Part shown: one piece after another, positions 1 to 5,400 of the stretch
Layout: each line of letters opens with the position of its first letter
Numbering within the stretch: the first letter of the stretch is position 1
From: a virus
Taxonomy: Duplodnaviria; Heunggongvirae; Uroviricota; Caudoviricetes
Direction: 5' to 3' (one strand)
Virus record (IMG/VR): IMGVR_UViG_2675903559_000004
Coordinates: 1 to 5,400 of that record
Length of the DNA: 5,400 nt
Translations under genes and position numbers: made by a program
Notes under the pieces: generated by a model
The model's database searches: none
Told to the model about the DNA's origin: nothing
What the model saw: the letters and a program-made list of their open reading frames with translations, nothing else

Positions 1-612
1 GGGGATTTACAACGATTTGGCCGCCGCATCGACCTTCGTGTGAAAACGGGGGCTGAAGCCATCCGGGCACTGGCCACACAGCTCCCGGCGTTTCGTCAGA
101 AACTGAGCGACGGCTGGTATCAGGTACGGATTTCCGGGCGGGACGTCAGCACGTCCGGATTGACGGCGCAGTTACATGAGGTTCTGCCTGACGGCGCTGT
201 GATTCATATTGTTCCCAGAGTCGCCGGGGCCAAGTCAGGGGGCGTATTCCAGATTGTCCTGGGAGCTGCCGCCATTGCCGGATCATTCTTTACTGCCGGA
301 GCCACCCTTGCAGCATGGGGGGCAGCCATTGGGGCCGGTGGTATGACCGGCATCCTGTTTTCTCTCGGTGCCAGTATGGTGCTCGGTGGTGTGGCGCAGA
401 TGCTGGCACCGAAAGCCAGAACTCCCCGTACACAGACAACGGATAACGGCAAACAGAACACCTATTTCTCCTCACTGGATAACATGGTTGCTCAGGGCAA
501 TGTTTTGCCTGTTCTGTACGGTGAAATGCGTGTGGGGTCACGGGTGGTTTCTCAGGAGATCAGCACGGCAGACGAAGGGGACGGTGGTCAGGTTGTGGTG
601 ATTGGTCGCTGA
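1..612 (+). CDS. I: Tail assembly protein I (lambda gpI-like), 5'-partial; frame is open from base 1, true start lies upstream of the window
   Basis: Frame +1 is open from nt 1 to TGA at 610..612. Translation (GDLQRFGRRIDLRVKTGAEAIRALATQLPAFRQKLSDGWYQVRISGRDV...GAAAIAGSFFTAGATLAAWGAAIGAGGMTGILFSLGASMVLGG...VLPVLYGEMRVGSRVVSQEISTADEGDGGQVVVIGR) matches my recollection of lambda gpI, including its Gly/Ala-rich hydrophobic segment. It sits immediately upstream of J, as in lambda. The ORF track begins at M40 only because the window truncates the gene. Confidence 0.85.
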   Translation, partial: GDLQRFGRRIDLRVKTGAEAIRALATQLPAFRQKLSDGWYQVRISGRDVSTSGLTAQLHEVLPDGAVIHIVPRVAGAKSGGVFQIVLGAAAIAGSFFTAGATLAAWGAAIGAGGMTGILFSLGASMVLGGVAQMLAPKARTPRTQTTDNGKQNTYFSSLDNMVAQGNVLPVLYGEMRVGSRVVSQEISTADEGDGGQVVVIGR

Positions 613-1580
613 TGCAAAATGTTTTATGTGAAACCGCCTGCGGGCGGTTTTGTCGTTTATGGAGCGTGAGGAATGGGTAAAGGCAGCAGTAAGGGGCATA
701 CCCCGCGCGAAGCGAAAGATAACCTGAAATCCACGCAGTTACTGAGTGTGATTGATGCCATCAGCGAAGGGCCGGTTGAAGGTCCGGTGGATGGATTAAA
801 AAGCGTGCTGCTGAACAGTACGCCGGTGCTGGACAGTGAGGGGAATACCAACATCTCCGGTGTCACGGTGGTGTTCCGGGCAGGTGAGCAGGAGCAGACA
901 CCGCCGGAAGGTTTTGAATCCTCCGGCTCCGAGACTGTGCTGGGTACGGAAGTGAAATATGACACGCCGATCACCCGCACCATCACGTCGGCAAACATCG
1001 ACCGTCTGCGCTTTACCTTCGGTGTGCAGGCACTGGTGGAAACCACCTCAAAGGGGGACAGGAATCCGTCGGAAGTCCGCCTGCTGGTTCAGATACAGCG
1101 TAACGGTGGCTGGGTGACGGAAAAAGACATCACCATTAAGGGCAAAACCACCTCGCAGTATCTGGCCTCGGTGGTGGTGGATAACCTGCCGCCGCGCCCG
1201 TTTAATATCCGGATGCGCAGGATGACGCCAGACAGCACCACAGACCAGCTGCAGAACAAAACGCTCTGGTCGTCATACACCGAAATCATCGATGTGAAAC
1301 AGTGCTACCCGAACACGGCACTGGTCGGCGTGCAGGTGGACTCGGAGCAGTTCGGCAGTCAGCAGGTGAGCCGTAATTATCATCTTCGCGGGCGCATTCT
1401 GCAGGTGCCGTCGAACTATAACCCGCAGACGCGGCAATACAGCGGTATCTGGGACGGAACGTTTAAGCCGGCATACAGCGACAACATGGCCTGGTGTCTG
1501 TGGGATATGCTGACCCACCCGCGCTACGGCATGGGGAAACGTCTTGGTGCGGCGGATGTGGATAAATGGGCGCTGTATGA
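584..1580. repeat. Tandem direct repeat, copy A (997 bp): I 3' end + I-J spacer + J 5' ~908 bp
   Basis: Hand alignment at a constant offset of 997 nt: 584..1151 is identical to 1581..2148, and 1152..1579 matches 2149..2576 with 17 substitutions. Base 1580 (a) matches neither the I-derived (g583) nor the J-derived (t2577) parental base. Confidence 0.9.
631..660 (+). promoter_or_regulatory. Intergenic stem-loop in the I-J spacer (stem aaaccgcc / ggcggttt, loop tgcg) followed by a T-rich tract ttgtcgtttat
   Basis: Perfect 8-bp inverted repeat at 631..638 / 643..650 with a 4-nt loop, read directly from the sequence. The T-tract is interrupted, so it is a weak intrinsic terminator at best; it could instead be an RNA processing or stability element between two co-transcribed late genes. 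Confidence 0.35.
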
Positions 1581-1677
1581 GTGGTCAGGTTGTGGTGATT
1601 GGTCGCTGATGCAAAATGTTTTATGTGAAACCGCCTGCGGGCGGTTTTGTCGTTTATGGAGCGTGAGGAATGGGTAA
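673..1677 (+). pseudogene. Truncated duplicate of the J 5' end (J'): first 302 codons of J fused to 32 out-of-frame codons read from the repeated I 3' end and spacer
   Basis: ATG at 673 has the same upstream context (ggagcgtgaggaATGGGTAAAGG) as the real J start at 1670. The protein is identical to the J N-terminus apart from D169G and S228N, up to …ADVDKWALY, then becomes [32 protein letters not shown] and stops at TAA 1675..1677. Confidence 0.75.
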
Positions 1678-2577
1678 AGGCAGCAGTAAGGGGCATACCC
1701 CGCGCGAAGCGAAAGATAACCTGAAATCCACGCAGTTACTGAGTGTGATTGATGCCATCAGCGAAGGGCCGGTTGAAGGTCCGGTGGATGGATTAAAAAG
1801 CGTGCTGCTGAACAGTACGCCGGTGCTGGACAGTGAGGGGAATACCAACATCTCCGGTGTCACGGTGGTGTTCCGGGCAGGTGAGCAGGAGCAGACACCG
1901 CCGGAAGGTTTTGAATCCTCCGGCTCCGAGACTGTGCTGGGTACGGAAGTGAAATATGACACGCCGATCACCCGCACCATCACGTCGGCAAACATCGACC
2001 GTCTGCGCTTTACCTTCGGTGTGCAGGCACTGGTGGAAACCACCTCAAAGGGGGACAGGAATCCGTCGGAAGTCCGCCTGCTGGTTCAGATACAGCGTAA
2101 CGGTGGCTGGGTGACGGAAAAAGACATCACCATTAAGGGCAAAACCACTTCGCAGTATCTGGCCTCGGTGGTGGTGGGTAACCTGCCGCCGCGCCCGTTT
2201 AATATCCGGATGCGCAGGATGACACCGGACAGCACCACAGACCAGCTGCAGAACAAAACGCTCTGGTCGTCGTACACCGAAATCATCGATGTGAAACAGT
2301 GCTACCCGAACACGGCGCTGGTCGGCGTGCAGGTGGATTCAGAGCAGTTCGGTAACCAGCAGGTGAGTCGCAATTATCATCTTCGCGGGCGCATTCTGCA
2401 GGTGCCGTCGAACTATAACCCGCAGACGCGGCAATACAGCGGTATCTGGGACGGAACGTTTAAGCCGGCATACAGCGACAACATGGCCTGGTGTCTGTGG
2501 GACATGCTCACTCATCCGCGCTACGGCATGGGGAAACGTCTTGGTGCGGCGGATGTGGATAAATGGGCGCTGTATGT
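1581..2577. repeat. Tandem direct repeat, copy B (997 bp), lying inside the intact I-spacer-J context
   Basis: Same alignment as copy A. Copy B continues in frame into the rest of J (…[13 protein letters not shown]…), whereas copy A is followed by the repeated I 3' end. Confidence 0.9.
1628..1657 (+). promoter_or_regulatory. Second copy of the I-J spacer stem-loop, duplicated with the repeat
   Basis: Identical to 631..660 at offset +997 (aaaccgcctgcgggcggtttt gtcgtttat). Confidence 0.35.
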
Positions 2578-5149
2578 CATCGGCCAGTACTGCGACCAGT
2601 CAGTGACGGACGGATTTGGCGGCACGGAGCCGCGCATCACCTGTAACTCTTACCTGACCACACAGCGTAAGGCGTGGGATGTTCTCAGTGATTTCTGCTC
2701 GGCGATGCGCTGTATGCCGGTATGGAACGGACAGATGCTGACGTTCGTGCAGGACCGACCGTCGGATAAGGTGTGGACCTATAACCGCAGTAATGTGGTG
2801 ATGCCGGATGATGGCGCGCCGTTCCGCTACAGCTTCAGCGCCCTGAAGGACCGCCATAATGCCGTTGAGGTGAACTGGATTGACCCGGATAACGGCTGGG
2901 AGACGGCGACAGAGCTTGTGGAGGATACGCAGGCCATTGCCCGTTACGGTCGTAATGTCACGAAGATGGATGCCTTTGGTTGTACCAGTCGGGGGCAGGC
3001 ACACCGCGCCGGGCTGTGGCTGATTAAAACGGAACTGCTGGAAACGCAGACCGTGGACTTCAGCGTGGGCGCAGAAGGGCTTCGCCATGTACCGGGTGAT
3101 GTCATTGAAATCTGCGATGATGATTATGCCGGTATCAGCACCGGTGGTCGCGTACTGGCGGTGAACAGCCAGACCCGGACGCTGACGCTCGACCGTGAAA
3201 TCACGCTGCTATCCTCCGGTACCACGCTGATAAGCCTGGTTGACGGAAGTGGCAATCCGGTCAGCGTGGAGGTCCAGTCCGTCACCGACGGCGTGAAGGT
3301 GAAAGTGAGCCGGGTTCCTGACGGCGTTGCAGAATACAGCGTGTGGGGGCTGAAGCTGCCGACGCTGCACCAGCGATTGTTCCGCTGCGTGAGTATCCGT
3401 GAGAACGACGACGGCACGTATGCCATCACCGCCGTGCAGCATGTACCGGAAAAAGAGGCCATCGTGGATAACGGGGCACACTTTGACGGTGACCGGCGCG
3501 GCACGGTGAATGGTGTCACGCCGCCAGCGGTGCAGCATCTGACCGCCGAAGTCACCGCAGACAGCGGGGAATATCAGGTGCTGGCGCGATGGGACACGCC
3601 GAAGGTGGTGAAGGGTGTGAGCTTCCTGCTTCGCCTGACCGTGGCAGCGGACGACGGCAGTGAGCGGCTGGTCAGCACAGCCAGGACGACGGAAACCACA
3701 TACCGCTTCAGGCAGCTGGCGCTGGGGAATTACAGTCTGACAGTCCGGGCGGTAAATGCCCGGGGGCAGCAGGGCGATCCGGCGTCGGTATCGTTCCGGA
3801 TTGCGGCACCGGCAGCGCCTGTCACTATTGAACTGATACCGGGGTATTTTCAGATAACGGCGGTCCCGAAACTGGCTGTATATGACCCGACGGTGCAGTT
3901 TGAGTTCTGGTTTTCGGAAAAGCGGATTGCGGATATCAGGCAGGTTGAAACCAGCGCGCGTTATCTTGGTACGGCACTGTACTGGATAGCCGCCAGTATC
4001 AATATCAAACCGGGCCATGATTATTATTTTTACGTTCGCAGTGTGAACACCGTTGGCAAATCGGCATTTGTGGAGGCCATCGGTCGGGCGAGCGATGATG
4101 CAGAAGGTTATCTGAATTTTTATAAAGGGTTGATCAATAAAACGCATCTCGGCAAGGAGTTGTGGACGCAGATTGATAACGGTCAGCTTGCGCCGGACCT
4201 GACTGAAATCAGGACGTCCATTACGAATGTCAGCAATGAAATCACGCAAACCGTCAATAAAAAACTGGAAAATCAGAGTGCTGCAATCCAGCAGATACAG
4301 AAAGTTCAGGTTGATACAAATAATAACCTGAACAGCATGTGGGCTGTGAAGCTGCAGCAGATGCAGGACGGACGCCTTTATATTGCGGGTATCGGTGCCG
4401 GTATTGAGAATACGCCAGCAGGAATGCAGAGTCAGGTGCTGCTGGCGGCAGACAGGATTGCGATGATTAATCCTGCGAATGGCAACACAAAGCCGATGTT
4501 TGTTGGTCAGGGCGATCAGATATTCATGAACGACGTGTTCCTGAAATGCCTGACGGCTCCGACCATTACCAGCGGCGGTAATCCTCCGGCATTTTCCCTG
4601 ACACCTGGCGGACGGCTGACGGCGAAAAATGCCGATATCAGCGGTAACGTGAACGCGAACTCCGGGACGCTCAACAACGTCACGATTAATAAGAACTGTC
4701 GGGTTCTGGGAAAATTGTCCGCGAACCAGATTGAAGGCGATCTCGTTAAAACAGTGGGCAAACCTTTCCCACGGGACTCCCGGGCACCGGAGAGGTGGCC
4801 ATCAGGGACCATTACCGTCAGGGTTTATGACGATCAGCCGTTTGATCGGCAAATTGTTATTCCCGCGGTGGCGTTTCGCGGTGCTAAACATGAGCGGAAG
4901 AATAACAATATTTATTCGTCATGCCGCCTGATAGTGAAGAAAAACGGTGCTGAAATTTATAACCGAACGACCCTGGATAATACGCTGATATATACGGGTG
5001 TTATTGATATGCCTGCCGGTCACGGTCACATGACGCTGGAGTTTTCTGTATCGGCATGGCTGGTAAATGGCTGGTATCCCACAGCAAGTATCAGCGATTT
5101 GCTGGTTGTGGTGATGAAGAAAGCCACTGCAGGCATCACGATTAGCTGA
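1670..5149 (+). CDS. J: Host specificity protein J (lambda gpJ-like tail tip / central tail fibre), 1159 aa
   Basis: Single 3480-nt ORF. N-terminus [54 protein letters not shown] matches my recollection of lambda J. Length is close to lambda J (about 1130 aa). A central stretch around nt 3530..3830 (…[32 protein letters not shown]…) looks like a fibronectin-III-type beta-sandwich. A GGAG Shine-Dalgarno at 1658..1661 lies 8 nt before the ATG. Position fits the order I, J, lom. Confidence 0.93.
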
Positions 5150-5168
5150 ATTTTATAACCCAGATACG

Positions 5169-5192
5169 GGCACCAGAAATGGTGCCTTTTTT
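5169..5192 (+). terminator. Rho-independent terminator downstream of J
   Basis: Perfect hairpin ggcacc (5169..5174) / ggtgcc (5181..5186) with loop agaaat, immediately followed by TTTTTT (5187..5192); begins 20 nt after the J stop codon. Confidence 0.7.
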
Positions 5193-5216
5193 ATTGCAGA
5201 AAAGCGAGAGGTAATT

Positions 5217-5400
5217 ATGCGTAAAGTTTGTGCAGCCATTTTGTCCACAGCCATCTGTCTGGCCGTATCCGGTGCGCCTGCATGGGCGTCTGAACATCAG
5301 TCCACGCTGAGCGCCGGGTATCTTCAGACCCATACTGATATGCCAGGCAGCGATGACCTGAAGGGCATTAACGTGAAATACCGTTATGAGTTTACGGACA
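5217..5400 (+). CDS. lom: Lom-like outer membrane protein precursor (Ail/Lom/OmpX family), 3'-partial; runs off the window end
   Basis: ATG at 5217 preceded by GAGAGG (5206..5211). Translation MRKVCAAILSTAICLAVSGAPAWA/SEHQSTLSAGYLQTHTDMPGSDDLKGINVKYRYEFTD has a typical Sec signal peptide (AxA cleavage motif) and the LKGINVKYRYE motif I recall from lambda Lom. It lies directly after J, as lom does in lambda. It is absent from the ORF track only because no stop codon falls inside the window. Confidence 0.85.
   Translation, partial: MRKVCAAILSTAICLAVSGAPAWASEHQSTLSAGYLQTHTDMPGSDDLKGINVKYRYEFTD

What the first reader, a model, noticed from the sequence alone, without database searches (positions are those of the whole stretch)
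584..2577. 997-bp tandem duplication across the I/J boundary creates a truncated J' ORF upstream of full-length J
The unit (last 29 bp of I, the 60-bp spacer with its hairpin and ribosome-binding site, and the first ~908 bp of J) occurs twice head to tail. The upstream copy encodes the first 302 residues of J and then reads out of frame through the repeated I end. Lambdoid tail modules normally carry a single J start, so this is either a real partial gene duplication at the tail tip or a chimeric or mis-assembled join.
Basis: seen in the sequence. Interest (0 to 1): 0.6.

Follow-up and report, generated by a model that had tools for sequence, protein, structure and literature searches.

The report
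Scaffold-join artefact, not J duplication
The apparent 997-bp tandem duplication at the phage tail genes I/J is two overlapping assembly contigs of a draft Shigella sonnei genome, joined end to end across one undetermined base (N in the public record, shown as A in the window), so it is an assembly artefact and not a biological feature.

Summary
The repeat is in the sequence. Positions 584-1579 and 1581-2576 align at a period of 997. The first 568 bp are identical and the rest carries 17 substitutions (98.3% identity overall). The window is the whole of CXBG01000225.1, a 5400-bp record of a draft S. sonnei assembly (GCA_001250655.1). The record and the window differ at one position only: 1580, the base between the two copies, which is N in the record and A in the window. 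The record is therefore a scaffold of two contigs (1-1579 and 1581-5400) whose ends overlap by 996 bp and were never merged. No sequence evidence crosses the join. Two sister assemblies of the same accession batch carry single n's in the same tail genes. One strings together three M-L-K-I modules and four J pieces. The join is absent from 5,426 complete E. coli genomes, 185,579 species-representative genomes, IMG/VR and JGI metagenomes. Each half on its own aligns collinearly to ordinary single-copy I-J loci. Fifteen of the 17 differences are at third codon positions, so the copies are two functional J alleles and not a decayed duplicate. The J' ORF is spurious, because its codon 303 contains the N. 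Verdict: not a real feature.

The parts
1..39 (+). 3' end of the tail assembly gene K (C40 peptidase), cut by the contig end
   Evidence: Matching E. coli loci annotate a 'C40 family peptidase' under this end.
40..612 (+). Tail assembly gene I (190 aa)
   Evidence: ORF; PF06805 Lambda_tail_I; the exact protein is on 701 contigs.
1..1579 (.). Left contig of the scaffold (K end, I, spacer, J nt 1-907)
   Evidence: Aligns as one collinear piece, at up to 98.8% identity, to single-copy I-J loci of E. coli. It ends at the N.
584..1579 (+). Overlap copy 1: the last 996 bp of the left contig
1580..1580 (.). Scaffold gap: 'N' in the public record CXBG01000225.1, shown as 'A' in the window
   Evidence: It is the only position where the window and the record differ.
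1581..2576 (+). Overlap copy 2: the first 996 bp of the right contig
   Evidence: At all 17 variable sites it carries the bases of the common S. sonnei J allele in L002.
1581..5400 (.). Right contig of the scaffold (last 29 bp of I, spacer, full J, start of lom)
   Evidence: Its first 1580 bp align as one collinear piece, at up to 97.3% identity, to single-copy loci of E. coli. Gene table.
673..1677 (+). Spurious J' ORF (J residues 1-302 plus 32 out-of-frame residues), produced by reading across the scaffold gap
   Evidence: Codon 303 spans the N. No protein with this tail is in the 15-billion-protein collection, and no homologue covers more than 93% of it (most cover 90%, the J part only).
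1670..5149 (+). Host-specificity / tail tip gene J (1159 aa)
   Evidence: Pfam families PF24801, PF13550, PF24421, PF24489, PF09327 and PF12421. It is 98-99% identical to other S. sonnei J proteins.
5217..5400 (+). 5' part of lom (Ail/Lom outer-membrane protein), cut by the contig end
   Evidence: PF06316; annotation of matching loci.
619..667 (+). Stem-loop in the I-J spacer (repeated at 1616-1664), followed by a U run just ahead of the J ribosome-binding site
   Evidence: RNA fold -21 kcal/mol, z = -3.2. The stem is kept with base changes in other S. sonnei loci.

Best explanation
The '997-bp tandem duplication' is an unmerged overlap at a scaffold join in a short-read draft assembly of Shigella sonnei. 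Two contigs were placed next to each other on read-pair evidence alone. One runs K'-I-J(nt 1-907). The other runs I(last 29 bp)-spacer-J-lom'. They were separated by a single N. The last 996 bp of the first contig and the first 996 bp of the second cover the same stretch of an I-J locus. The overlap was not recognised, so it was written out twice.

S. sonnei carries several lambdoid tail modules that share the I end and J 5' sequence and begin to differ at J nt 480. The two contigs carry different J alleles downstream of that point, and those 17 mismatches probably prevented the merge.

Shown: the N at the junction, the suffix-to-prefix overlap, the allele pattern, the same artefact in sister assemblies, and the absence of the junction elsewhere.

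Inferred: which program produced the join. The likeliest route is SSPACE scaffolding plus GapFiller extension from both gap edges without closure, as in the Sanger pipeline (PMC5320598, PMC3446322). It is also inferred, not shown, whether the two contigs come from one prophage or from two paralogous ones.

No gene J' exists, and nothing here has a biological mechanism.
For: (1) The window is record CXBG01000225.1 (5400 bp, GCA_001250655.1, S. sonnei). The record has N at 1580, exactly between the copies, and is otherwise identical to the window.
(2) The repeat is exactly the suffix of 1-1579 against the prefix of 1581-5400.
(3) Sister assembly CXEU01000085.1 (L003) has a single n at 6695, 10660 and 17731. 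Each sits at an implausible join (J'|TMP C-terminus, J'|TMP, lom start|inside J). The result is three M-L-K-I modules and four J pieces in a row.
(4) Sister assembly CXDK01000078.1 (L004) has a similar pile-up, and an n at J nt 480, the site homologous to the first mismatch between the window's copies.
(5) The junction is absent from 5,426 complete E. coli genomes, which all match the window over about 4,403 bp, i.e. a single copy. It is also absent from genome contigs, viral contigs and metagenome contigs.
(6) Each half alone is collinear with normal single-copy I-J loci.
(7) Fifteen of the 17 differences are at third codon positions of J (positions, frame). Copy 2 has the L002 S. sonnei allele at all 17 sites. 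So these are two functional alleles, not a duplicate decaying in place.
(8) Many other S. sonnei assemblies break their J contig between aa 87 and 148 of J (partial proteins of 1011-1073 aa on about 4.1-5.3 kb contigs). This shows that I and the J 5' end are an unresolved repeat in this species.
(9) The pipeline paper states that joins made by read pairs get Ns and that SSPACE and GapFiller 'can lead to false joins' (PMC5320598). GapFiller extends both gap edges and closes a gap only if the extensions merge and the length fits (PMC3446322).
Against: I could not see the reads, so the join has not been tested directly. I have no record stating that this particular assembly was made with Velvet, SSPACE and GapFiller; that is inferred from the accession batch and the single-n signature. 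Any true tandem duplication can also be cut into a suffix-to-prefix overlap, so the geometry alone does not discriminate. The 568 identical bases appearing twice need the assembler or gap filler to have used the same reads twice, which is plausible but not shown.
Confidence: 0.95

Rival explanations
1. A real tandem duplication of the I-end/J-5' segment exists in this isolate's prophage. It was made by illegitimate recombination, perhaps between two co-resident lambdoid prophages with different J alleles, and the assembler merely failed to call one base at the novel joint.
For: The repeat is present in the deposited record. There is no microhomology at the joint, as in some illegitimate recombination events. 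The two copies carry different natural alleles, which an intermolecular event could produce.
Against: A real joint would be covered by reads and would be assembled without an N. The only undetermined base in the record sits exactly at the joint. Short-read assemblers collapse rather than resolve a repeat with 568 identical bases. Sister assemblies show the same n-marked joins in biologically absurd arrangements. No other genome, virus or metagenome contig has the joint. A J N-terminal fragment would probably interfere with tail-tip assembly (inference from established knowledge that J nucleates lambda tail-tip assembly).
Confidence: 0.03
2. The record is one correctly ordered locus with a genuine short gap. 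The repeat reflects two adjacent, separately inherited partial I-J modules of a degraded prophage (an old duplication), not an overlap.
For: S. sonnei prophage remnants are rearranged. The copies differ at 17 sites, so they are not a trivial copy-paste of one contig.
Against: There are 568 identical bases followed by differences almost all at synonymous third positions, which does not look like an old decaying duplicate. Copy 1 stops and copy 2 starts exactly at the N, with a perfect register of 997. There is no such arrangement in thousands of related loci.
Confidence: 0.02

Closest known systems
False joins and unmerged contig overlaps from read-pair scaffolding and gap filling (SSPACE and GapFiller, as used in the Sanger high-throughput bacterial assembly pipeline, PMC5320598)
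   Same: There is a single undetermined base at the join. The sequence on the two sides overlaps suffix to prefix. The site is a multi-copy prophage region. The same signature recurs in sister assemblies of the same accession batch.
   Different: Nothing differs in kind. I could not confirm from a record which software produced this assembly. That SSPACE writes a single n for a suspected but unfound overlap is from my own memory, and I did not find it stated in the papers I read.
Lambda-type tail tip locus K-I-J-lom (single I, single J)
   Same: Each half of the window is an ordinary collinear piece of such a locus, 97-99% identical to E. coli prophages. The Pfam families are Lambda_tail_I, the TipJ/GpJ domains and Ail_Lom.
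   Different: Only the written-out overlap differs. Once 1580-2576 (or 584-1580) is removed, the window is a normal 4,403-bp locus, the length over which all E. coli genomes match it.

Membership tests
Scaffold-join artefact (unmerged contig overlap) | Undetermined base(s) at the junction in the source record | tested here: met
   N at 1580 of CXBG01000225.1. It is the only N in the record and the only difference from the window.
Scaffold-join artefact (unmerged contig overlap) | The repeat is exactly the suffix of the left piece against the prefix of the right piece, in register | tested here: met
   584-1579 against 1581-2576, ungapped, 98.3% identity.
Scaffold-join artefact (unmerged contig overlap) | The same signature recurs in other assemblies of the same batch, at the same repeat family | tested here: met
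   L003 has n at 6695, 10660 and 17731. L004 has n at 10480, which is J nt 480. Tail modules are concatenated in both.
Scaffold-join artefact (unmerged contig overlap) | No reads span the join, and depth and pair distances fit a single-copy layout | not testable with these tools
True tandem gene duplication | The novel joint is sequenced through | tested here: not met
   The joint base is N.
True tandem gene duplication | The joint or arrangement is seen in independent genomes of the lineage or in related phages | tested here: not met
   There are no contiguous matches in 5,426 E. coli genomes and no exact joint matches in genome, viral or metagenome collections. Closed S. sonnei genomes themselves could not be searched at the DNA level.
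True tandem gene duplication | Differences between the copies are those expected of post-duplication drift in a truncated, non-functional copy (spread over all codon positions) | tested here: not met
   Fifteen of 17 differences are at third codon positions, and all 17 copy-2 states equal a known S. sonnei allele.
Lambda-like tail tip genes I and J (TipJ family) | Pfam domain content and synteny K-I-J-lom | tested here: met
   Precomputed Pfam hits; annotated E. coli loci.

The most novel reading that the evidence does not exclude
The isolate truly carries a 997-bp partial duplication spanning the I/J boundary, formed by illegitimate recombination between two co-resident lambdoid prophages. 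It would express a 302-residue N-terminal J fragment upstream of full-length J, and the N would be a coincidental base-calling failure at the joint.
Probability: 0.03. Interest if true: 0.3.

Novelty: not a real feature. Interest (0 to 1): 0.03.

Why it matters
It has no biological importance, but it matters for the scan and for databases.

- **Hidden scaffold gaps.** The window preparation turned an N into an A. That hid the one character that identifies the join as a scaffold gap. Windows should keep or flag Ns.
- **Spurious genes in public collections.** Scaffolds of this batch produce spurious ORFs and fusion "proteins". Examples are the J' ORF here, P0120 (named "phage tail tape measure protein [Shigella sonnei]" but actually a J N-terminus plus a TMP C-terminus read across an n), and P0129. 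These can mislead searches for gene fusions, duplications and domain architectures.

Tried and rejected
- **Junction scans with A at the joint.** I scanned genome contigs with a 32-mer and a 22-mer and viral contigs with the 32-mer and found nothing. The A later turned out to be a stand-in for N. I repeated the scan with N at that position in viral contigs and metagenome contigs and again found nothing.
- **Tandem Repeats Finder.** It reported nothing because the period exceeds its 500-bp limit.
- **Contexts of S. sonnei J proteins P0009 and P0005.** These include a 4.9-Mb contig.
- **Loci L002-L004 in Python.** They were not available in the Python sandbox, so I read the junctions with get_sequence instead.
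- **SSPACE single-n convention.** A literature search for an explicit statement of it found none. That point stays marked as my own recollection.
- **Recent in-place duplication followed by drift.** I rejected this because of the third-codon-position bias and the match to a known allele.
- **Homology-driven misjoin by the assembler.** I rejected this for the joint itself, since J nt 907 and I nt -29 share no homology. A read-pair scaffold join explains the joint without needing any.

Full report
**Observation.**
A self-comparison of the window finds one long direct repeat: 584-1579 against 1581-2576, start-to-start spacing 997, ungapped. These are the last 29 bp of gene I (ORF 40-612), the 60-bp I-J spacer with its stem-loop, and the first 907 bp of J (ATG at 673 and again at 1670). 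ORF 673-1677 (334 aa) encodes J residues 1-302. It then reads the repeated I end and spacer out of frame and stops within the start of the second J.

Two details were missed. First, the copies are not identical. The first 568 bp are identical, then 17 substitutions fall between 1152 and 1518, giving 98.3% identity. Second, base 1580, which separates the copies, matches neither the I context (G583) nor the J context (T2577).

**Source of the window.**
An exact look-up of the 1159-aa J protein shows that the window is the entire record CXBG01000225.1. This is a 5400-bp record of the draft assembly GCA_001250655.1, and the sources name the organism as Shigella sonnei. Comparing the record with the window base by base gives a single difference: position 1580 is N in the record and A in the window. 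It is also the only N in the record.

The "contig" is therefore a scaffold of two contigs, 1-1579 and 1581-5400. The "tandem duplication" is the 996-bp overlap between the end of the first and the start of the second, written out twice on either side of a one-base gap. No sequence evidence crosses the junction. The J' ORF exists only if the N in its codon 303 (1579-1581) is read as a base.

**The same artefact in sister assemblies.**
Homologues of the J' ORF include odd fusion proteins from S. sonnei. Their contigs come from the same accession batch.

CXEU01000085.1 (L003) carries TMP-M-L-K-I-J'-(TMP end)-M-L-K-I-(small ORF)-J'/TMP-M-L-K-I-J-J-lom. That is three tail-tip modules and four J pieces in a row. 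Each implausible joint holds a single n:
- 6695, inside J joined to the TMP C-terminus;
- 10660, J nt 660 joined to TMP;
- 17731, the lom start joined to the inside of J.

CXDK01000078.1 (L004) shows a similar pile-up. It also has an n at 10480, which is J nt 480. That site is homologous to window 1152/2149, where the two copies of the window first differ. So J nt 480 is a branch point between paralogous J alleles in S. sonnei, and this batch of assemblies habitually joins tail-module contigs across single Ns.

In addition, many S. sonnei assemblies from other pipelines break the contig that carries this J allele between aa 87 and 148 of J (partial proteins of 1011-1073 aa on about 4.1-5.3 kb contigs). 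That is what one expects if I and the J 5' end form an unresolved multi-copy repeat.

**What the two halves are.**
Each half by itself aligns as one collinear piece to ordinary single-copy I-J loci in more than 4,000 complete E. coli genomes. The left half reaches 98.8% identity and the first 1580 bp of the right half reach 97.3%. The whole window matches those genomes over about 4,403 bp, which is 5,400 minus 997.

Fifteen of the 17 differences lie at third codon positions of J (positions, frame). At all 17 sites copy 2 carries the bases of the common S. sonnei J allele seen in FUCA01000236.1 (L002). Copy 1 carries the D170/S229 type also seen in other S. sonnei and E. coli J genes. The copies are therefore two alleles that diverged as functional genes. 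They are not a duplicate decaying in place.

The right contig's first 568 bp are of the copy-1 type rather than the type usually linked to its downstream allele. Five amino-acid differences from P0005 and P0009 fall within the first 160 residues. The exact 1159-aa protein is found on this contig only. Together these suggest that the start of the right contig was itself built from reads of the paralogous or collapsed repeat. This last step is inference.

**Absence elsewhere.**
A 301-bp query centred on the joint found no contiguous match in 5,426 complete E. coli genomes. The "80% covered" places there are two non-collinear pieces of a normal locus. Exact-pattern scans of the joint found nothing in one genome per species of GTDB, in IMG/VR or in JGI metagenomes. 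The genome scans used A at the joint.

**Mechanism of the artefact (inferred).**
The Sanger high-throughput pipeline paper describes Velvet assembly followed by SSPACE scaffolding and GapFiller. It says that contigs joined by read pairs get a gap of Ns, and that both tools are greedy and "can lead to false joins" (PMC5320598). GapFiller extends both edges of a gap and closes it only if the extensions merge and the length fits the estimate (PMC3446322).

Extension from both edges through a repeat whose two versions differ would leave exactly this picture: overlapping sequence on both sides of a residual N. I did not find a record tying this particular assembly to that pipeline. My recollection that SSPACE inserts a single n for a suspected but unfound overlap could not be confirmed in the papers I read.

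**Rivals.**
A real duplication whose joint base simply failed to be called cannot be excluded without reads, but it is unlikely, at about 3%. The reasons are these:
- A real joint would be covered by reads.
- A 568-bp identical stretch would normally be collapsed by a short-read assembler.
- The N sits exactly at the joint.
- The same signature produces absurd gene orders in sister assemblies.

An old duplication in a degraded prophage (about 2%) does not fit the perfect register, the 568 identical bases or the synonymous pattern of the differences.

**Comparison with known things and verdict.**
Once the overlap is removed, the window is a standard lambda-type K'-I-J-lom' segment (Pfam families). 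The "feature" belongs to the known class of scaffolding and gap-filling artefacts. It is not a real feature. Interest is 0.03. The practical lessons are that N-to-A substitution in window preparation hides scaffold gaps, and that fusion and duplicate ORFs from such scaffolds are present in public protein collections under misleading names.

Noticed in passing
window 1580: The window shows 'A' where the public record has 'N'. The window preparation evidently replaces undetermined bases, which hides scaffold gaps from a reader working on sequence alone.
   Followed up: yes
L003 6695, 10660, 17731; L004 10480: Sister S. sonnei assemblies (CXEU01000085.1, CXDK01000078.1) hold single-n joins that concatenate several paralogous tail modules. 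The resulting fusion ORFs are in nr and UniRef under misleading names, for example P0120 'phage tail tape measure protein' (actually a J N-terminus plus a TMP C-terminus) and P0129 (J' plus L).
   Followed up: partly
window 619-667 (and 1616-1664): The I-J spacer forms a strong stem-loop (-21 kcal/mol, z = -3.2; core GAAACCGCC/GGCGGTTTT) followed by a U run just ahead of the J Shine-Dalgarno sequence. Another S. sonnei locus keeps the stem with changed bases (GCCGCC/GGCGGC). It may be a terminator or attenuator-like element, or an mRNA-stability element, between I and J.
   Followed up: partly
L003 9530-9940: One S. sonnei prophage has an AT-rich insert between I and J. It encodes a 112-aa ORF with a lipoprotein-type signal peptide (MNKTILFCTIIALTGC...), and looks like a moron inserted at the I/J boundary.
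   Followed up: no
window 1670-2148 (J residues 1-160): The window's J differs from the common S. sonnei J (P0005, P0009) at five residues in the first 160 (E36, S49, N58, I61, F114), and all five equal the copy-1 allele. The exact protein is unique to this contig. So the start of the right contig is probably also chimeric. Four more differences lie downstream (L514, H567, K780, Q899).
   Followed up: partly
P0146 (E. coli, 385 aa, on a 1.06-Mb contig): This protein consists of about J residues 1-206 fused to most of an I protein (PF24801 plus PF06805). It could be a real rearrangement across the I/J region in a large contig or another assembly artefact.
   Followed up: no
window 3336-3369 and 4332-4365: A 34-nt direct repeat at 76% identity within J, spaced 996 bp apart. 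The spacing is close to the 997 period by coincidence. It is probably a chance match or weak similarity between J's internal domains.
   Followed up: no
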